A stretch of DNA of 63,203 bases, the filler included, from Globobulimina sp. (lineage: Eukaryota), in NCBI GenBank assembly GCA_003354225.1. It is 13 parts of 13 records of this genome, joined end to end, with 100 filler letters (N's around TTAATTAATTAA, not from the genome) between each part and the next. Parts side by side here need not be neighbours in the genome. Positions count along the whole stretch, not along the records: positions 53,579 to 58,341 come from PIVH01000940.1; 12 more parts are not named here. One strand, given 5' to 3'. The notes beneath the pieces are model-generated. The model searched no databases. It was not told the DNA's origin and was given only the letters and a program-made list of their open reading frames with translations. Within the stretch, counting starts at the first letter, position 1. Every line of letters begins with the position of its first letter. Shown here piece by piece: positions 53,579 to 62,421 of the stretch. The translations under genes were made by a program, and so were the position numbers.

Positions 53579-54130
53579 CATCCATACAGACAAATTATGG
53601 CAATGGATATACCGAACAAAAACAGTGAGACAATACATTATGTCATGTTTAAACAGAAAAACAGAAACAGGGATTGGGTAGGGTTTATGAGAACAGATAC
53701 TAAAGGGGTAGAAAGAGGGATGGAACTGGTGCAGACCATGGAAGATATGGTTGATGAAGTAATGAAATATGGTATGGCATTGACATACAATTATCAAGTG
53801 TCCTTGTCCCCGGGGATAGATCCAAAAATTTGTGAATTTGACATGATTCTAACCTCAATATTAGAGAGTATGCCTCTGCCAAACCAACTCGTAGATGGTG
53901 CTAGTAAAGCCCGATTAGAAGAATTAGTGGACTCGGCATGTACCTACCCGCTTCATCTCGTTCCATACCAATATATGGATATATCAAAAGGTTGGTATGT
54001 CTGTATACATGGTCTTATTACTGCGATTCTCAGAGATTGGAAACAAACTCATAATATTGAATTATTAAACTCATTGCATAAAAGGGTGATAATGTATTGT
54101 AATGGAATGGGCGAATGTATCGGACAATAA
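53579..54130 (+). CDS. Hypothetical protein of the virus-like cassette (frame open to the contig start)
   Basis: 177-aa ORF; the stop codon overlaps AATAAA. Confidence 0.6.
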   Translation, partial: HPYRQIMAMDIPNKNSETIHYVMFKQKNRNRDWVGFMRTDTKGVERGMELVQTMEDMVDEVMKYGMALTYNYQVSLSPGIDPKICEFDMILTSILESMPLPNQLVDGASKARLEELVDSACTYPLHLVPYQYMDISKGWYVCIHGLITAILRDWKQTHNIELLNSLHKRVIMYCNGMGECIGQ

Positions 54131-54161
54131 AAATGAGTTTTATTTGTATGCAAAATAAATT

Positions 54162-54868
54162 TCAAGTTAGCATACCAATAATATCATCAGTAAGCACGTC
54201 AATAGGTTTAGATGCATCAAATACATATATTTGACCTCGTATCTTATTAGGTAGAAAAGAACCATTACAAGCCCATTCATTGTAAACTTTATTTATATCA
54301 GAAAGATAATTTTCAGATAAGCCAGATTCTTCGTTGCGCATGCGTAATTTGGAACGTTGAAACATTAACTGGGGTTCTGCTTTCAAGTAAACAATTGTGT
54401 CATAATCATTTAATTTGGAGTTAGCACTTTCGAGAGCCAAAAAGTTATTGTAAAGAATAGCATACTGACGCAAACTGAGCTGATTGTTTTCGAGAAACAA
54501 TTTCGAAAATACTTCTAAGCTAGAAACCGCTGTACGTTCGGTGAAAAAGAATTTGACACCTTCTTTTTCAGCTTGACTATATGCGTTGAAAAATGCTTGT
54601 GCGTAAGTGCTTAGAACCAAAAGTTGGAAATTGAAAATTTCCTTCTTTGGATTATTGTAAAACTCGTCCAGTGGTGACCATTCTTCCCCTCGAAAGGAGA
54701 ATTTTTGCCACAATTCAATTGGTTCAAGAAACACTTTAGAGTTTGGCATCTTCTGCTCAATACTATTGAGCAACGTGCTCTTACCTACCGCAATATTTCC
54801 TAGAAAAATAGAATCAATTTCATTTGTTTAATTAAACGAGACTTACCTTCAATACCAACCAGTTTCAT
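54162..54868 (-). CDS. Deoxynucleoside kinase (dCK/dGK/TK2 family); exons 54847-54868 and 54162-54799
   Basis: Spliced product MKLVGIEGNIAVGKSTLL; EPIELW, FNFQ, ERT, YLKA.P and R.RNEE lid motifs. Intron 54800-54846 reads GTAAGT...TTTTTCTAG. Confidence 0.92.
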
Positions 54869-54962
54869 TGCCTCTTCTGAAATGATTGAACGTGGAGATG
54901 CAGTGAGATGAACGTGTAGGGATGAGTGCTTCCTCTCCTACTTCCCTGGTGGTCAGTGTGTT
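54869..54962. promoter_or_regulatory. Putative bidirectional promoter between the two kinase genes
   Basis: 94-bp gap; TCAGT at 54953 (+) and TCATTT at 54880-54885 (-), each just before an ATG. Confidence 0.5.
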
Positions 54963-55628
54963 ATGGCTAAATTGTACACAATAGCGGGGGCTCCAGGTGT
55001 GGGTAAATCCCATGTTTTAAGTAAAATATCTCAACACTATAGCCCCGATTTAGTTTATGTTCAGATAAAACCAACGACACATTGGACTACATTAACAGAT
55101 GTCTGTACTGGTAAATCATTGAATATGTTAACAAACTTGTACAATGAAAAGTATTTTACTTTTAAATATCAAACTTTCATTCAGACAGAATTAGTAAAAC
55201 GGGTCAAAGACCTGATTGGGAAAAATACTAAAATTATTATAACTGAACGATCAATACTTGAGGCATTTTATGTTTTTGGAATTTTGTTTGAGAAAATTGG
55301 AAAAATCGACAGTATCGAACTGACGATACTTTATGAACAGTTTACCGCGTTGAAAAAACTATGTCCTGAAGCCTTCAACTACGCAGGAATGTTTTATTTG
55401 TCAGCTGATTTGAACACCATAGAAAACAGGGTACAAAAACGTAATCGCGAACAAGAAAAAAATATGGATTCAGCTTATCTCGCACAATTAATAAATAAAT
55501 ATGACGAATTTGCTCTAGACAGATATTCATTATTCCAAAATGTAGTGCATATAGATGCCGACCAAAGCTCAAATTCTGTTTTTACACAACTTTGTGTCTC
55601 TATAGATAATATAATGTCCGAATTATAA
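54963..55628 (+). CDS. Second, divergent deoxynucleoside-kinase-family protein
   Basis: IAGAPGVGKS P-loop, FKYQ, ERS, YLSAD and RVQKRNREQE..MDSAYL. Confidence 0.88.
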   Translation: MAKLYTIAGAPGVGKSHVLSKISQHYSPDLVYVQIKPTTHWTTLTDVCTGKSLNMLTNLYNEKYFTFKYQTFIQTELVKRVKDLIGKNTKIIITERSILEAFYVFGILFEKIGKIDSIELTILYEQFTALKKLCPEAFNYAGMFYLSADLNTIENRVQKRNREQEKNMDSAYLAQLINKYDEFALDRYSLFQNVVHIDADQSSNSVFTQLCVSIDNIMSEL

Positions 55629-56108
55629 AATATTCTGATAAATCAAAAATATCATTATAAGAGCAATCGCTCCGAAATGAATCCATTTAAAATTAAGTTT
55701 TGATTTTTTCATAAATGTTTGAAAACCGCCCCATCCGCCGTTATTGGAAAACCAGACTCCTGTTTCGTTGAAAATACTTTTTGAAAATTGTTCTTCTAAT
55801 TCTGAGAGATATTTTGGATTACCTTTGTTTAAATTTGCCATCTTGGCACAAAAAGCAAAATTTGAAACTAGACGACCATAGTTGATCGTTTTGTCCTTGA
55901 AAACGGCATTTATTGCTGCCGGAATCAAATGCAAAGGCAATTTTTTAGCATATGTTTCCAATATTGGGTCCTCTATTTCCATTATAGCGCCAGTTAGTGT
56001 TGGTAGAATATAGTGTTGATTATGAATTGGTTGTCCTGTTGCCCAGAGAATAGTTTGCCTAACAGCACATCTAATTTGAAACAAAGTCTCCCCCATATTG
56101 AAAACCAT
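55623..56108 (-). CDS. Bcl-2 family protein
   Basis: BH1-like VFKDKTINYGRLVSNFAF, BH2-like WFSNNGGWGGF and a C-terminal TM anchor WIHFGAIALIMIFLIY. Confidence 0.88.
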   Translation of the reverse strand: MVFNMGETLFQIRCAVRQTILWATGQPIHNQHYILPTLTGAIMEIEDPILETYAKKLPLHLIPAAINAVFKDKTINYGRLVSNFAFCAKMANLNKGNPKYLSELEEQFSKSIFNETGVWFSNNGGWGGFQTFMKKSKLNFKWIHFGAIALIMIFLIYQNIL

Positions 56109-56219
56109 GAACTGATAATGAGTCAGGAAAAGAGAAGGTAGAGTAGTGAAGATTTCGTCGTTCTTCTCATCTTTTACTACCTATTTACCTATTTGTCTTA
56201 GTCAGTTATTTCGATCGTT
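56109..56219. promoter_or_regulatory. Putative bidirectional promoter between the Bcl-2 gene and ORF 56220
   Basis: TCAGTT on the - strand (56110-56115) and on the + strand (56202-56207); purine-rich left half and pyrimidine-rich right half. Confidence 0.5.
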
Positions 56220-56762
56220 ATGGATGAGTCTTGTCTCAGTCTGAAATCTGCTTTTTTTAACCCCAGCAACATGTCTAATTATAACGACGATCAGTCGTGC
56301 TTTGAGAAAGATAATATCATGAAAACTGCTTTTATTGTGTTTTATATGGACGAATTGCGCCATACTCTCAAATGTTACATCTACGAATTCTGTAAAGCAT
56401 GCAATCAGGATATAGGTGGAAAAACAGCTGCAATCGATTATCCTCATACGTGCACCAAATATAGGACAATGCGCCAGGCCTACGACGAATATGGCAGCTT
56501 GTCCGTCAATGAAATCAACCAAGACAACAAAGCCAGGTGGAGAATTTGTAGAAAATGGTGGGATTTTATTTTTGATTTGCCCGATTGCAGCACAATAACT
56601 CATGAGGATGCAGTGAAATTCAGTCAAAAATGGGAGAATGATTACTTTACTGCTCTACAATGTGGTTGGGAATATGAATTTAATGAGGTCATGGGACAAT
56701 TCTATTGGTTTGTACCTAACCATCACATTGACGATGTCTTGAAACAGTTGTCGAAAATGTAA
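56220..56762 (+). CDS. Hypothetical protein with a CxxC...HxC putative metal-binding motif
   Basis: FCKACNQDIGGKTAAIDYPHTC; AATAAA downstream at about 56842. Confidence 0.65.
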   Translation: MDESCLSLKSAFFNPSNMSNYNDDQSCFEKDNIMKTAFIVFYMDELRHTLKCYIYEFCKACNQDIGGKTAAIDYPHTCTKYRTMRQAYDEYGSLSVNEINQDNKARWRICRKWWDFIFDLPDCSTITHEDAVKFSQKWENDYFTALQCGWEYEFNEVMGQFYWFVPNHHIDDVLKQLSKM

Positions 56763-56900
56763 TTTCGTTGTCATCTTTCCAATTATGTATTAAACTTAAA
56801 CGTACATACATGAAGAAGCATCAGACGCTCTTCTATCATATAATAAAAGTAATATTATGCTTCATTTGCACTTAAACCAAACTTATAAGACGGTTCAACC

Positions 56901-57215
56901 ATGAAAAAAATTAACGGTTACTCGCTTGCTGCTAAATTGTGCGAGTATTCCACACTGGTCGGAAGTGGATTGTCTTTTCCTATGTTGTGCAGAATATTCG
57001 GACCAATGTATTGGGAACACCTCCGCCCATTGGAAAAGCTATATTACAAAAGATTGGCAAACCAATACAAGCAATCAGTTTTGGGAATCGCAGAGAGAGC
57101 CGGACAGATACCAACTCGTTTTGAATTCTTGAATGCTATATTTGGAGACAGAATCCAGGAACAAAATCAAGTGTTGGATGAGCTCGAAAGTGTGATAATT
57201 GAACTAAATATGTAA
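56901..57215 (+). CDS. HMG-box-like protein
   Basis: KINGYSL...LCRIFGPMYWEHLRPLEKLYYKRLANQYK matches the HMG-box pattern W..L...EK..Y...A...K; AATAAA at 57274. Confidence 0.7.
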   Translation: MKKINGYSLAAKLCEYSTLVGSGLSFPMLCRIFGPMYWEHLRPLEKLYYKRLANQYKQSVLGIAERAGQIPTRFEFLNAIFGDRIQEQNQVLDELESVIIELNM

Positions 57216-57279
57216 AAAAGTTTTTCGATGATTGTAATACATACTTATTTTTACTGAATGAGGTAATATAATTAATAAA

Positions 57280-57501
57280 TCAATGCCCAGTCGAGCCAAA
57301 ACCAAAATTATTTCGATCCGTCTCATCAACAGAATCACACTCTAATACTTGAGCCATAAAAATCTGTTCCAAAATTATCTGAGCAATTCTGTCGTTTTTT
57401 ATAACATAATAATCTTCATTACTAAAATTGAACAGTAATATGGCCACATTGCCTCTGTAATCACCATCAATAACTCCTGCCCCGACATCTATGAAATGAT
57501 T
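57280..57501 (-). pseudogene. dut: 3' half of a trimeric dUTPase (motifs 3-5), cut off at a junction; not in the ORF track
   Basis: My translation: [73 protein letters not shown]. No start codon; motifs 1-2 are absent upstream. Confidence 0.95.
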
Positions 57502-57508
57502 ACAATAA

Positions 57509-58042
57509 TCATGAATTTGGCTGAATCAAGCCGTAGTGTCCATCTCTGCGTCGGTACAACACATTAATGCGGTCATCTCTGGCATTGGTAAATACCAGAA
57601 AATTATCTTCGATCAGATCCATTTGCAATACGGCTTCCTCAATATCCATTGGTTTATATTCGATATTGCGGATTTTGATCTGCCTTTCAGCATCTTCGTC
57701 CGGCAGAGTGTCAGCTTCTTCCAACATGGATAGACTGCGGTTTTTTGATGCCGACCGGCGTTCTCTTATTTTCTGTTTACTTTTTTTAATCTGTTTTTCG
57801 AGTTTATCAAGCGCCATGTCGATGGCCGAATACATGTCGTTGGTCTCTTCGCTGCCGATAATGGTAAGTTTATCACCGGCAATATTGATCTCTGCGATGT
57901 GTCGAAATTTTTCGACCGCCAGCACGACATTGGCTTCGGCCGGATTGTCGAGATATTTATCGAAACGATCTAATTTGTCACTCACGTAGGATTTTAGATG
58001 TTCAGAAGGATCAATATTCTTAAATGTGACGGATGTCTGCAT
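57509..58042 (-). CDS. hpf: Bacterial ribosome hibernation promoting factor (long HPF / sigma-54 modulation protein)
   Basis: [38 protein letters not shown] and [31 protein letters not shown]; follows rpoN; Shine-Dalgarno TAAGGAGGT overlaps the rpoN stop. Confidence 0.95.
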
Positions 58043-58056
58043 CCTTTAAGACCTCC

Positions 58057-58341
58057 TTATAGTTGTTTGCGTTTATTGGATGGCAGTATTTTCAGCATCT
58101 CGCGATATTTAGCAACCGTTCTGCGCGCGATGTGAATCTCTTCTTCTTTCAAAATCCGGGCGATCTTATCATCGCTGTAAGGTTTTTGAGAATCCTCAGC
58201 CACAATGATTTGCCTGATCTTTTCCTGGACACTGGCAGAAGCAATGGCCCCGCCATGCTTGCGCCGAATCGAACTGTTAAAAAAATATTTTAATTCATAA
58301 ATACCCTGGGGGGTGAACGCATATTTGTTGGTCGTCACCCG
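58057..58341 (-). CDS. rpoN: Bacterial RNA polymerase sigma-54 factor, C-terminal fragment
   Basis: RpoN box ARRTVAKYRE; TPQGIYELKYFF and KPYSDDKI. Confidence 0.96.
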   Translation of the reverse strand, partial: RVTTNKYAFTPQGIYELKYFFNSSIRRKHGGAIASASVQEKIRQIIVAEDSQKPYSDDKIARILKEEEIHIARRTVAKYREMLKILPSNKRKQL

Positions 58342-60365: not shown

Positions 60366-62421
60366 CTACATTATTTTCGGAGCGTAGGCACCGCCATATT
60401 CCACAATGGCAAAAGGAAACTTGCACCGGATTAACGACTGCAATTCTTCCGATTCAGAATGGTATTCATGTAATTCTGCCTCGGCCCAGACAGATAATTT
60501 GGTTATTTGTGGTCTATCTTTCTTTGTTGCTTTTAAACCATTATACAGATACATTGTAAATTGCTGCGGTGGCTTATCATTCTCATTCTCATTCTCATTC
60601 TCGTTGTCGTCATTTGGCTCTTTATCCTTTGCGTTTTTCTCCCTCTCAATAATAGGTGCATCACCTTTGTTATTTCCACATATATTACACATATTTGCAT
60701 CCATTTTATTCCAAAATGTACATTTTAAACAATTCCAGCCATAATTTTCTTGATTTTCTAACATTTTCCATATTCGTTCAAAATCACTCCACAAAATGAC
60801 TTGTCCGGTGTCAAAATATGGTTTTATTTGATATGCACTAAAATTTGATTTCAAATTTGTTAATAATTGCTGCAAATCATTTGTTTTTATAATACCGTGT
60901 TCTTCGACATCAAATATATTAAACTCGTGTCTTAATTGCTGCATTTTTTTATCATATTTGCTTATTTTGCTCACATTAATATTTAATGCAAATAATGTGG
61001 TATAATGTGAGGAGGAGCCAACAACCCATATTGGGTACGATGGACATTTATAATTATTTCCCACTTTGGCCAATCGCATAGCTTCTAAAGTGGTTAAAAA
61101 ACCAATCTCTTGATTTGCTTCGATGCCCCGCAAAATAAATGTATCTGCCCCCAACAATGACGCATCGCCTAAGGCTTTATTGCCGTCGTGGATATTTGTC
61201 ACGCATTTACCGGTTATCATCAAATTCACCAACTCTTGCGAACAATGACCGAATTCTGACAATATCAGAGGCTGCGTCTTATCGTCGACTTCGTCCAAAC
61301 ACACCGCCAACGATCGACTTAATAACACCGACAACACAAAGGAGATCACACCAATACGGGAGCGCAACAATGGCAATGTCGACACTATCAAAGCTCGTAA
61401 TTCGGCCTTGCCGTTTCTCACTATTTTTCTATAATATTTGTCACTCCATCGGTCAGCCGATACTATCCATGTTATATACGTCTCATCGATGGCGGCTTTA
61501 CAAACTATGTGAATCAATGCGCGGATTAATGCTTCTTCGCGTTGTTCATTGTTGGGTAATACGGGTATCTCCGACCCGTCATCCAATAGTATACCCATTG
61601 TGCTATCAAATAGCATCTCTTTCAGCATATATGCCTTAATTTAATTCATGTAATATTAATATTAATATTGCGAATAACCGTAAATATTTTATAGAACTGT
61701 ACCTGAACAGGTGCCATTACACCACATGGCCCGCCGTGAATTTGTAGCAACCCGAACCTTATGTTATTGTTATTGTTATTGTTGTTGTTGTTGTCGTCGT
61801 TGTCTTTTATGAATCCGAGTCCCTGCGAATACCATCGATCCATATCATTTGGTTTTGCTTTTGTTCCAAATAATATTAATAATAATTCATTTATTTCATT
61901 CTCTGCAATTAATTCGCCGTCTATTTTATTTTCATCTTCTTCCAAAACAAAGGCTGCGAATTCAAATTTATCATTTTCATCTACTTTTTCTTCTTTCTCT
62001 TCTTTGATTTCATTGTTTGCCATATTTATATCAATATCATTGCTGAATGCATACAATGTATAATTAATGCATACAATGTATACAATAAATAGAAGGACGT
62101 TATGGAACTTAACAGATCGTTGTTTTCAGTGTTTTCAGTGTTTGGATTGTGTTTGGGAGATGGTAATATTTCTAGGTCGCCATCGGGGTTTGAGTCTAAC
62201 ACTAAAAAATGACAATTTGTTGACAAATGAAGTTGACTCAATGTTTTATCGGTTTGTTGGGTATCAACATTGCCCATTTCTGCCATTAATTGTTGTCGTG
62301 ATGGTGGAATTCCAGATTTGCGTTGAATTGCTACCAGCAATGCAGACAATTTTGTGTGTCCCTCCATTTTGTCCAACTCAATATTCTCTCCATTGATAAT
62401 ACAGGTAAATTGGTAGGCCAT
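60366..62421 (-). CDS. MINDY3/4-family deubiquitinase with an N-terminal ubiquitin-like domain, an EF-hand-like region and a RanBP2-type zinc finger, 3 exons
   Basis: GLLQIHGGPCGVMAPVQ (catalytic Cys), GHCSQELVNLMITG, PIWVVGSSSHYTTLF (catalytic His), WNCLKCTFWN...CNICG and Ubl-like SGIPPSRQQL. GT-AG introns restore the frame. Confidence 0.85.

What the first reader, a model, noticed from the sequence alone, without database searches (positions are those of the whole stretch)
53579..57501. Virus-like cassette (2 x dNK, Bcl-2, HMG box, dUTPase) with a spliceosomal intron: candidate undescribed nuclear DNA virus or endogenous viral element of an animal
Seen: seven tightly packed genes in 3.9 kb in alternating orientation, with abutting stop codons (TTATAA at 55623-55628), AATAAA after several stops, TCAKT before starts and one GT-AG intron. 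Established: deoxynucleoside kinase, dUTPase and Bcl-2 homologues are auxiliary genes of large animal DNA viruses (herpesviruses, iridoviruses, asfarviruses, poxviruses), and the Bcl-2 family is essentially limited to animals and their viruses. Inference: this is neither the protist host nor a normal animal chromosome. Splicing and Pol II-type signals point to nuclear transcription (herpes-like, mirusvirus-like or a large Polinton/adintovirus-like element) in a co-sampled invertebrate. No capsid, polymerase or packaging gene is in view, so the family cannot be named.
Basis: partly seen in the sequence, partly recalled or inferred. Interest (0 to 1): 0.88.

Follow-up and report, generated by a model that had tools for sequence, protein, structure and literature searches.

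The report
Adintovirus-like accessory gene cassette fragment
A 3.9-kb piece of DNA with nucleotide-salvage and anti-cell-death genes most likely comes from a virus-like mobile element (Maverick/adintovirus type) of an unidentified small animal sampled with the protist, and it was mis-joined to bacterial DNA during assembly.

Summary
The window is 13 size-sorted contigs joined by N spacers. The finding lies on contig 53579-58341.

**What holds up.** Six whole ORFs and a dUTPase 3' half lie in 3.9 kb. They include two deeply diverged deoxynucleoside kinases, one needing a 47-nt GT-AG intron, and a Bcl-2 homologue. Stops abut at TTATAA. AATAAA/ATTAAA follows 4 of 7 stops. TCAKT lies within 40 nt upstream of 5 of 5 testable starts (p about 7e-5; other contigs 4 of 25).

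**What does not.** The HMG box is unsupported by Pfam, PDB or AlphaFold2.

**Chimera.** From about 57495-57505 rightward the contig is Desulfobacterales hpf-rpoN DNA. A public-run contig diverges at 57505.

**New link.** The unannotated ORF g5 (56220-56762) has 46-63% identical homologues on three metagenome contigs. On all three it sits beside a double-jelly-roll capsid gene. The longest also carries protein-primed PolB (itself with a 52-nt intron), an A32-like ATPase and an rve-chromodomain integrase.

**Verdict.** Best reading (0.55): accessory region of a Maverick/adintovirus-like element of an unidentified animal. No hallmark gene is on the fragment, and g5's neighbours differ from those loci. 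New member of a known kind; moderate interest.

The parts
53579..57505 (.). Virus-like fragment, 35.3% GC. The left end is the contig end; the right end is the chimeric junction.
   Evidence: Contigs of run X1 tile 53579-57505, with loose ends of 255 nt (left) and 88 nt (right).
53597..54130 (+). g1, a 177-aa ORF of unknown family. The frame is open to the contig end, so the start is uncertain.
   Evidence: no Pfam hit; no PDB hit; no Atlas hit. Variants: 5 synonymous, 4 non-synonymous.
54162..54799 (-). dNK-a exon 2: the rest of the P-loop, an ERT motif and an Arg-rich lid.
   Evidence: Pfam dNK 1.1e-21. PDB dCK/dGK/Dm-dNK 5e-12 to 3e-11.
54800..54846 (-). 47-nt spliceosomal-type intron, GTAAGT...CTAG, phase 1, with in-frame stops.
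   Evidence: A variant contig has a 1-nt deletion at 54823 and a substitution at 54837, both inside the intron.
54847..54868 (-). dNK-a exon 1: the ATG and the first 7 codons plus one base.
   Evidence: Without splicing, the first ATG of the frame lies after the P-loop.
54963..55628 (+). dNK-b, 221 aa, transcribed divergently from dNK-a across a 94-nt spacer.
   Evidence: Pfam dNK 5.3e-26. PDB dGK 3.7e-9. 25% identical to dNK-a. One 73% identical relative on an ENA contig.
55623..56108 (-). Bcl-2 family protein, 161 aa, with BH1-like NYGR, BH2-like GGWGGF and a hydrophobic C-terminal tail.
   Evidence: Pfam 7.3e-10, above the cut-off. PDB A1/Bfl-1, Bcl2L10, FPV039 and Mcl-1. Clade alignment. 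Variants: 10 synonymous, 4 non-synonymous.
56220..56762 (+). g5, a 180-aa Cys/His- and Trp-rich protein of unknown function. It is the link to Maverick/adintovirus-like contigs.
56901..57215 (+). The family is not established.
   Evidence: Two variants, both synonymous.
57280..57505 (-). dUTPase 3' half (conserved motifs 3-5, by my reading) with its stop codon. It is cut off by the assembly junction.
57495..57505 (.). Chimeric junction. About 11 nt are shared by the two sources.
   Evidence: The BLASTN match to Desulfobacterales MAG L006 runs 58341-57495 at 89%. The X1 contig runs on unlike the window beyond 57505 (table 7).
57509..58341 (-). Bacterial DNA, not part of the element: hpf (57509-58042) and the 3' end of rpoN (58057-58341). 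42.9% GC.
   Evidence: Pfam S30AE 5e-23 and 1e-21. HPF is 96% identical to a deltaproteobacterial MAG.. The rpoN label is my reading of the frame.

Best explanation
Positions 53579-57505 are a fragment of the accessory (non-structural) gene region of a Maverick/Polinton-class, adintovirus-like double-stranded DNA element. Whether it was a free virus or an integrated copy cannot be told. It came from an unidentified small animal present in the same sample as the protist.

**Shown**
- The gene content.
- The intron form.
- The start-proximal TCAGT/TCATT motifs.
- The poly(A) signals.
- The excess of synonymous differences between co-occurring variants.
- The assembly chimera with Desulfobacterales DNA.
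- g5 homologues sit inside three elements that carry a double-jelly-roll capsid gene. The longest also carries protein-primed PolB, a packaging ATPase and an rve-chromodomain integrase.

**Inferred**
- The genes are transcribed in the host nucleus by RNA polymerase II. Each gene has its own initiator-type promoter and a very short 5' leader, and dNK-a is spliced.
- The two kinases and the dUTPase raise and clean the dNTP pool for element replication in non-dividing cells.
- The tail-anchored Bcl-2 homologue holds off mitochondrial apoptosis.
- The host is an animal.
For: **Link through g5**
- g5 is 62.5% identical to the g5 of L001, 46% to that of L002 and 47% to that of L003.
- In 3 of 3 true loci, g5 converges on the capsid gene.
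- L001 carries PolB (PF03175, 4.1e-23), rve (4.1e-11) plus a weak Chromo match (0.0038), a weak A32 ATPase match (0.0067) and a weak DJR match (0.0038).
- The L001 and L002 capsid proteins are 76% identical, yet their g5 proteins are only 49% identical. By g5 divergence, the window's element is nearer to L001 than L002 is.

**Shared biology**
- The L001 PolB has a 52-nt GT-AG phase-1 intron splitting the YFDT|DS motif. This parallels the 47-nt phase-1 intron of dNK-a.
- TCAGT also precedes g5 in L001 and L002.
- Tetranucleotide correlation is 0.94 with L002 and 0.89 with L001, against 0.87-0.93 with the protist contigs.

**Gene function**
- Of the 40 listed variants, 24 are synonymous, 14 non-synonymous and 2 non-coding. 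Both indels are non-coding.

**Literature**
- Adintoviruses are reported to carry Bcl2 and IAP homologues (PMC8502044, section 3.2).
- An rve integrase with a C-terminal chromodomain is called distinctive of them (PMC11071296, passage).
Against: - No hallmark gene (PolB, capsid, ATPase, integrase, protease, terminal repeat) lies in the 3.9 kb.
- The link rests on one gene of unknown function, which could have moved horizontally.
- g5's neighbours here (Bcl-2 and the HMG-like ORF) differ from its neighbours in all three related loci (ATPase and capsid in L001 and L002; capsid in L003).
- No other gene of the fragment matches L001-L003 (tblastn, E up to 1).
- All 8 IMG/VR scans were negative.
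- Relatives of the Bcl-2 and dNK-b proteins are known only from short metagenome contigs whose neighbours I could not see.
- L001 itself was tested only in part. Its PolB N-terminus is missing, and its capsid, ATPase and chromodomain Pfam matches are below the cut-offs.
- The animal host rests on the recalled taxonomic range of Bcl-2 and on two named hits, Priapulus and Latimeria Mcl-1, at E about 2e-4 to 3e-4.
Confidence: 0.55

Rival explanations
1. The stretch is a fragment of a different, larger nuclear dsDNA virus of an invertebrate, of an unnamed family or a nudivirus-, herpes- or irido-like group. That virus would merely share the g5 gene with adintovirus-like elements through horizontal transfer.
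For: - An auxiliary set of two dNKs, dUTPase and Bcl-2 is typical of large DNA viruses (recalled knowledge).
- g5 is not beside a capsid gene here, unlike in 3 of 3 related loci.
- No hallmark gene is in view.
- Widespread gene exchange among animal DNA viruses is documented (PMC11071296, abstract and passages).
Against: - g5 identity to L001 (62.5%) is higher than between two elements whose capsids are 76% identical. That argues for close kinship, not an old transfer.
- The short phase-1 intron style and the TCAGT before g5 are shared with those elements.
- No positive hit to any large-virus hallmark was found.
Confidence: 0.2
2. The stretch is ordinary cellular DNA of a very compact eukaryotic genome, either the protist of the assembly or another small eukaryote. 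On this reading it is not a mobile element or virus.
For: - The dNK, dUTPase and Bcl-2 proteins all resemble cellular, animal-type proteins.
- The protist contigs also have short GT-AG introns of about 68-70 nt (my reading).
- Tetranucleotide correlation with the protist contigs is not low, at 0.87-0.93.
Against: - Seven genes in 3.9 kb with 31-138-nt spacers and abutting stops is denser than in the 12 other contigs.
- Start-proximal TCAKT is found at 5 of 5 starts here and 4 of 25 in the protist ORFs.
- g5 lies inside capsid-bearing elements elsewhere.
- The Bcl-2 clade has only 15 relatives at E up to 1e-3 among 1.84 billion representatives. None of the 6 of its own-clade members that I looked up is from a named genome.
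- Several 90-99% identical variants co-occur in one run.
Confidence: 0.1
3. The 3.9 kb is itself a mosaic made by the assembler from unrelated fragments, as its right end certainly is. On this reading the 'cassette' does not exist as one molecule.
For: - The contig is chimeric at 57495-57505.
- The X1 contigs that tile it are short (229-644 nt for the 8 shown) and overlap by only about 15-30 nt (table 8).
Against: - Uniform composition and the same promoter motif at all genes.
- Listed records bridge dNK-a to dNK-b (54381-55025) and Bcl-2 to g5 (55642-56263).
- Stop codons abut exactly.
- No loose end was reported inside the stretch except one divergent relative at 55623-55668.
Confidence: 0.05

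Closest known systems
Adintoviruses (Starrett et al. 2021, PMC8502044; Buck et al. 2024 preprint, PMC11071296)
   Same: - The g5-bearing relatives L001-L003 show the defining module: pfam03175 PolB, an FtsK/A32-type ATPase, a double-jelly-roll capsid and an rve integrase with a chromodomain.
- Adintoviruses are reported to carry Bcl2 and IAP homologues.
- The association with animals fits a Bcl-2 gene.
   Different: - The window's fragment shows none of the defining genes.
- g5 is not next to the capsid gene here.
- My two searches found no adintovirus paper that mentions deoxynucleoside kinases (0 papers). They found thymidine-kinase-like genes only for bidnavirus segments.
- The supplementary genome maps of PMC8502044 could not be seen and may already show such genes or g5 (an 'Adintoc' protein?).
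Mavericks/Polintons carrying cargo genes (Arkhipova and Yushenova 2019, PMC6431247, passages; Widen et al. preprint 10.1101/2022.07.12.499685, listing and start of abstract only)
   Same: Integrating PolB- and integrase-bearing virus-like elements of 15-40 kb that collect extra ORFs. They are found in animals and protists.
   Different: The cargo described there is not a nucleotide-metabolism plus Bcl-2 set, as far as the passages I saw go. Integration of the present element was not observed.
Pro-survival Bcl-2 proteins: cellular A1/Bfl-1, Bcl2L10 and Mcl-1; fowlpox virus FPV039
   Same: - Best PDB matches are 2.7e-4 to 2.4e-3 over the BH1-BH2 region.
- It has NWGR-type and GGW-type motifs and a C-terminal hydrophobic tail.
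   Different: - Very divergent: only 15 relatives at E up to 1e-3 in 1.84 billion representatives.
- The BH1 Trp is Tyr here.
- No BH3 or BH4 motif was identified.
- Binding partners are untested.
Multisubstrate deoxynucleoside kinases of the dCK/dGK/Drosophila dNK family (PF01712)
   Same: - Both proteins pass Pfam and match dCK, dGK and Dm-dNK structures.
- P-loop, ER(S/T) and Arg-rich lid motifs are present (my reading).
   Different: - The two copies are only 25% identical.
- Each is about as far from the cellular enzymes as from the other.
- Substrate range is unknown.
Auxiliary gene sets of large animal DNA viruses such as herpes-, irido-, asfar-, pox- and nudiviruses (recalled, not tested here)
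   Same: The combination of dNK/TK, dUTPase and a Bcl-2 homologue.
   Different: No hallmark gene of any of these groups was seen. The only context evidence points to Maverick/adintovirus-like elements.

Membership tests
Bcl-2 family (PF00452) | Profile match above the curated cut-off | tested here: met
   39.7 bits against 31.4, E 7.3e-10.
Bcl-2 family (PF00452) | BH1 (NWGR-type) and BH2 (GGW-type) motifs, and a C-terminal membrane anchor | tested here: met
   NYGRLVS and NNGGWGGF align to BH1 and BH2 of A1 and Bcl2L10 and are conserved in the 13-sequence clade alignment. The hydrophobic tail was read by eye; no predictor was run.
Bcl-2 family (PF00452) | Helical bundle fold with a BH3-binding groove, and binding of BH3 ligands | not tested
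Deoxynucleoside kinase (PF01712) | Profile match above the cut-off, with P-loop, ER(S/T) and Arg-rich lid motifs | tested here: met
   dNK-a 77.9 bits and dNK-b 92.1 bits against a cut-off of 27. PDB matches. Motifs were read. The dNK-a P-loop is complete only after splicing.
Trimeric dUTPase | Five conserved motifs | tested here: inconclusive
   Only the 3' half is in the window. It matches human dUTPase residues 72-143 at 3.7e-24. The 5' half is replaced by bacterial DNA.
HMG box (PF00505) | Profile match, or an L-shaped three-helix fold | tested here: not met
   No Pfam hit at E up to 10. No PDB hit at E up to 10. The AF2 model is helical but has pLDDT 49.5. Only a loose pattern resemblance by eye.
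Adintovirus / Maverick-Polinton | Protein-primed PolB, rve integrase (with chromodomain), double-jelly-roll capsid plus penton, FtsK/A32 ATPase, adenain protease and terminal inverted repeats on the same molecule | not testable with these tools
   The fragment ends at 53579 and at the chimeric junction. No whole assembly is held. The single read-laying run is used. None of these genes lies in 53579-57505.
Adintovirus / Maverick-Polinton | Shares a lineage-specific gene with elements that do carry the hallmark genes | tested here: met
   g5 is 46-63% identical to ORFs that lie next to the capsid gene in L001, L002 and L003 (3 of 3 true loci).
Adintovirus (as applied to relative L001) | pfam03175 PolB with an N-terminal OTU domain; hexon recognisable by BLASTP to reference hexons; rve integrase with a C-terminal chromodomain | tested here: inconclusive
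   PolB 4.1e-23, but its N-terminus is off the contig. rve 4.1e-11. Chromo 0.0038 and DJR 0.0038 are below the cut-offs. No reference hexon was at hand.

The most novel reading that the evidence does not exclude
The fragment represents an undescribed, larger lineage of nuclear dsDNA viruses of sediment-dwelling small animals. It would be derived from, or recombinant with, Maverick/adintovirus-like elements. It would have moved the conserved g5 gene out of the capsid module. Around g5 it would have built a herpes- or pox-style auxiliary module of two anciently diverged dNKs, a dUTPase and a tail-anchored Bcl-2, with individually promoted and partly spliced genes.
Probability: 0.2. Interest if true: 0.6.

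Novelty: new member of a known kind. Interest (0 to 1): 0.4.

Why it matters
- **Range of accessory genes.** If the link holds, Maverick/adintovirus-like elements of invertebrates can carry a full 'large-virus' auxiliary set: dNTP salvage, dUTP clean-up and apoptosis block. That narrows the gap between mid-size integrating elements and large DNA viruses.
- **A new marker.** The g5 family (6 sequences, 46-71% identity) is a conserved gene of this clade with no known fold or function. It can be used to fish out further members.
- **Data quality.** This contig is a contaminant and a chimera (animal-virus-like DNA plus Desulfobacterales DNA) inside a protist assembly. It should not be counted as protist sequence or as evidence of gene transfer.

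Tried and rejected
**Searches that found nothing**
- All 8 IMG/VR scans were negative: Bcl-2, dNK-b, g5, g1, the g5 alignment, the Bcl-2 alignment, the L001/L002 capsid alignment and the ATPase alignment.
- The first metagenome scan, with the Bcl-2 alignment, matched 598 pattern stretches and confirmed none.
- The genome-contig scan with g5 matched 232 stretches and confirmed none.
- No whole genome is held for the window. Earlier findings of the scan returned nothing in 3 look-ups.
- Rfam (gathering thresholds) and a repeat search on the contig showed nothing of note.

**False positives**
- L004 and L005 (E 6e-6 and 1e-5) lie on bacterial-looking contigs. I dropped them.

**Structure and remote-homology attempts**
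- AF2 of g5 with 6 sequences gave pLDDT 46.9. AF2 of the HMG-like ORF alone gave 49.5. Both are too poor, so I ran no fold search.
- The Atlas gave g5 a first hit of 0.90 to an unnamed eukaryotic cluster, commonest taxon Rotifera, with phylum known for 7 members of 69. IBR-like zinc-finger clusters scored below 0.9. This is a lead only.
- The Atlas gave g1 nothing.
- PDB profile and sequence searches for g5 and g1 gave nothing, or E 0.86.

**Sequencing runs**
- No RNA holder is listed.
- Runs X2 and X3 of the same sample hold next to none of the words (X2 laid 1 piece, X3 laid 0). The bacterial part has almost no cover in X1. By the tool's own rules none of this is evidence of absence, and I do not use it.

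**Ideas dropped**
- That g5 is the adenain protease: no Pfam match at E up to 10, and the conserved Cys/His pattern does not fit by eye.
- A Trichomonas-type host, suggested by the start-proximal TCA initiator: the intron lacks the long conserved 3' motif that I recall for that lineage, and Bcl-2 argues against it.

Full report
**Setting**

The window is not one molecule. It is 13 contigs of 4762-4779 bp, sorted by size and joined by N44-TTAATTAATTAA-N44 spacers. The finding lies on the twelfth contig, 53579-58341. No whole assembly is held for it.

The other twelve contigs carry long, low-complexity eukaryotic ORFs. These include RPN2, a MINDY-3/4 deubiquitinase, an MFS transporter and a 2OG oxygenase. 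The 'protist' background is therefore real.

**What is in 53579-57505**

Six complete ORFs and one truncated ORF lie in alternating orientation.

| Gene | Coordinates | Strand | Size | Main evidence |
|---|---|---|---|---|
| g1 | 53597-54130 | + | 177 aa | no family |
| dNK-a | 54162-54868, spliced | - | | Pfam dNK 1.1e-21; PDB dCK/dGK/Dm-dNK about 1e-11 |
| dNK-b | 54963-55628 | + | 221 aa | Pfam dNK 5.3e-26; PDB dGK 3.7e-9 |
| Bcl-2 homologue | 55623-56108 | - | 161 aa | Pfam 7.3e-10, 39.7 bits against cut-off 31.4 |
| g5 | 56220-56762 | + | 180 aa | no family, but see the link below |
| HMG-like ORF | 56901-57215 | + | 104 aa | no family |
| dUTPase 3' half | 57280-57505 | - | | human-type dUTPases, 3.7e-24 |

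- The two kinases are only 25% identical to each other. They are old paralogues, not a recent duplication.
- The best solved relatives of the Bcl-2 homologue are the pro-survival proteins A1/Bfl-1, Bcl2L10, fowlpox FPV039 and Mcl-1.
- The BH1- and BH2-type motifs and a hydrophobic tail are conserved in its clade.

**Signals**

- **Intron.** The dNK-a intron is 54846-54800. It is 47 nt, GTAAGT...CTAG, phase 1. It joins a 22-nt first exon with the ATG to the P-loop. Without splicing, the first ATG lies after the P-loop.
- **Stops.** TTATAA at 55623-55628 is the two stop codons of dNK-b and Bcl-2, tail to tail.
- **Poly(A) signals.** AATAAA or ATTAAA follows 4 of 7 stops within 80 nt (my reading).
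- **Initiator-like motif.** TCAGT or TCATT lies within 40 nt upstream of all 5 starts that have that much sequence. TCAGT lies within 25 nt of 3 of those 5. From the motif's density in the stretch, chance is about 7e-5 and 4e-4 respectively.
- **Control.** For 25 ORFs of 200 aa or more on the other contigs, the figures are 4 of 25 and 0 of 25. First-ATG starts there may be wrong, which weakens this control somewhat.

**The HMG box**

This claim fails. There is no Pfam hit even at E up to 10 and no PDB hit at E up to 10. The single-sequence AF2 model is helical but has pLDDT 49.5. By eye there is a loose G-x-M-W / E-K-x-x-Y resemblance and no more.

**The contig is a chimera**

- The right 0.83 kb encodes bacterial HPF (Pfam 5e-23 and 1e-21) and what I read as the C-terminus of RpoN.
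- HPF is 96% identical to that of an uncultured deltaproteobacterial MAG. The next hits are Desulfobacterales.
- At DNA level the match to that MAG (L006) runs from 58341 to 57495 at 89%.
- One public run, X1, holds 82% of the sampled words of 53579-57500.
- Its contigs tile 53579-57505. At 57505 one of them runs on for 88 letters unlike the window (table 7).
- Read on the minus strand, I take the 30 letters shown there to encode the conserved dUTPase motif that precedes the part present in the window. This is my own reading, not a tool result.
- The true dUTPase gene therefore continues. The bacterial DNA was attached by the assembler across about 11 shared bases.
- Another contig runs 255 letters beyond the left end.

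**Variants**

Run X1 holds several versions of the stretch. Of 29 laid pieces, 16 are 99% alike or more, 6 are 95-99% and 7 are 90-95%.

- Of the 40 differences listed (9 more were not shown), 24 are synonymous, 14 non-synonymous and 2 non-coding.
- The two indels fall in the intron (54823) and in a spacer (after 56769).
- This is the pattern of working genes under purifying selection. It also agrees with the intron call.
- It does not tell a virus population from several integrated copies.

**The link to a known kind**

Word-based searches found only a few close relatives, all unnamed and on short metagenome contigs.

| Query | Relatives found |
|---|---|
| Bcl-2 | 78% and 65% identical |
| dNK-b | 73% identical |
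| g5 | 69%, 63%, 54%, 48% and 47% identical |

None of the 8 proteins I looked up carries a name.

A metagenome scan with the g5 alignment returned five loci. Two are bacterial false positives. The three true loci are as follows.

- **L001** (7118 bp; g5 62.5% identical). In order it carries a protein-primed PolB (PF03175, 4.1e-23), a 214-aa A32-like ATPase (weak, 0.0067) and g5. On the other strand it carries a 448-aa capsid protein (DJR-like, weak, 0.0038), three small ORFs and an rve integrase (4.1e-11) with a weak chromodomain match.
- **L002** (4719 bp) has the same order: ATPase, g5, capsid and onward to integrase.
- **L003** (1053 bp) has g5 converging on the capsid C-terminus.

This is the Maverick/Polinton architecture. 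Its animal-associated members have been named adintoviruses. PMC8502044 sections 3.1 and 3.2 define the group, note unnamed conserved 'Adintoc' proteins, and report Bcl2 and IAP homologues. A passage of PMC11071296 calls the rve integrase with a C-terminal chromodomain distinctive.

Three further points tie the window's stretch to these loci.

1. The L001 PolB is interrupted by a 52-nt GT-AG phase-1 intron inside the YFDT|DS motif. That is the same style as the dNK-a intron.
2. TCAGT precedes g5 in L001 and L002.
3. Tetranucleotide use correlates 0.94 with L002 and 0.89 with L001, against 0.87-0.93 with the protist contigs. The protist contigs correlate with each other at 0.86-0.98, mostly 0.92 or more.

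By g5 divergence the window's element is nearer to L001 (62.5%) than L002 is (49%). Yet the L001 and L002 capsid proteins are 76% identical.

**What speaks against it**

- The fragment has no hallmark gene.
- g5 is the only link, and its function is unknown. AF2 gave pLDDT 46.9 and the PDB profile search found nothing.
- Here g5 sits between Bcl-2 and the HMG-like ORF, not between ATPase and capsid.
- No other gene of the fragment matches L001-L003.
- All eight IMG/VR scans were negative.

**The Bcl-2 clade**

The clade is tiny. There are 15 proteins at E up to 1e-3, and 8 at E up to 1e-10, among 1.84 billion representatives. Of the 10 that I looked up, only Priapulus and Latimeria Mcl-1 homologues carry names, at E about 2e-4 to 3e-4.

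**How it most likely works**

All of the following is inferred except where stated.

- The genes are separate Pol II units, each with an initiator-type start a few to about 40 bases before the ATG. Most have their own poly(A) signal. Convergent pairs are packed so tightly that their 3' ends must overlap.
- dNK-a needs the host spliceosome. The form of the intron is shown; its removal is not.
- The two kinases and the dUTPase would feed and clean the dNTP pool for the element's own polymerase.
- The tail-anchored Bcl-2 homologue would block the mitochondrial death pathway of an animal host cell.

**Verdict**

The exceptions are the HMG box and the unnoticed bacterial tail.
- The virus-like reading is right in kind. 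The family can now be narrowed with moderate confidence (0.55) to Maverick/adintovirus-like elements.
- Rivals:
  - another large nuclear DNA virus that shares g5 (0.2);
  - a compact cellular locus (0.1);
  - an assembler mosaic (0.05).
- Novelty: a new member of a known kind. A dNK-dNK-dUTPase set in such elements is possibly unreported. My searches were 'adintovirus' with 'deoxynucleoside kinase' (0 papers), with 'thymidine kinase' (one work, about bidnavirus segments) and with 'Bcl-2' as spelled (0 papers). The supplements that hold the genome maps were closed.
- Interest: 0.4.

Noticed in passing
window 1-63203: The window is 13 contigs of 4762-4779 bp, sorted by length and joined by N44-TTAATTAATTAA-N44 spacers. 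Neighbouring 'genes' across spacers are not linked.
   Followed up: yes
window 57495-58341: Desulfobacterales hpf and the rpoN 3' end are fused to the virus-like stretch by mis-assembly. HPF is 96% identical to a deltaproteobacterial MAG. This points to a sediment-type community in the sample.
   Followed up: yes
L001 1139-1190: A 52-nt GT-AG phase-1 intron splits the catalytic YFDT|DS motif of the protein-primed PolB of an adintovirus-like metagenome contig.
   Followed up: partly
window 55623-55668: One contig of run X1 matches only these 46 nt, which encode the Bcl-2 tail anchor. It has 125 and 99 unlike letters on either side. It is probably a more divergent relative with other neighbours in the same run (table 7).
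   Followed up: no
L004 2369-2518: A 104-aa ORF on a bacterial-looking contig shares an 'ICRKWWDF'-like stretch with g5 (38% over 40 residues; ORF). I took it for a chance match picked out by the pattern scan. It looks to me like a rhamnose-mutarotase-type protein (recalled, not tested).
   Followed up: partly
window 61630-62115 (minus strand): The protist's ubiquitin-like/MINDY gene seems to be split by two AT-rich GT-AG introns of about 68-70 nt (my reading). The background organism therefore also has short introns, and an intron alone does not set the cassette apart.
   Followed up: partly
window 56202-56603 (minus strand): A 133-aa ORF lies antisense inside g5, with no Pfam hit. The variants there are synonymous in the g5 frame, so it is probably not a gene.
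   Followed up: partly
window 56220-56762 and alignment A2: The g5 family has invariant C58, C61, H76, C78 and C110 and a Trp-rich block (R-W-x-I-C-x-K-W-W-x-F-I-F). This suggests a small metal-binding domain. The Atlas's nearest named clusters are IBR-type zinc fingers, at scores below 0.9.
   Followed up: partly
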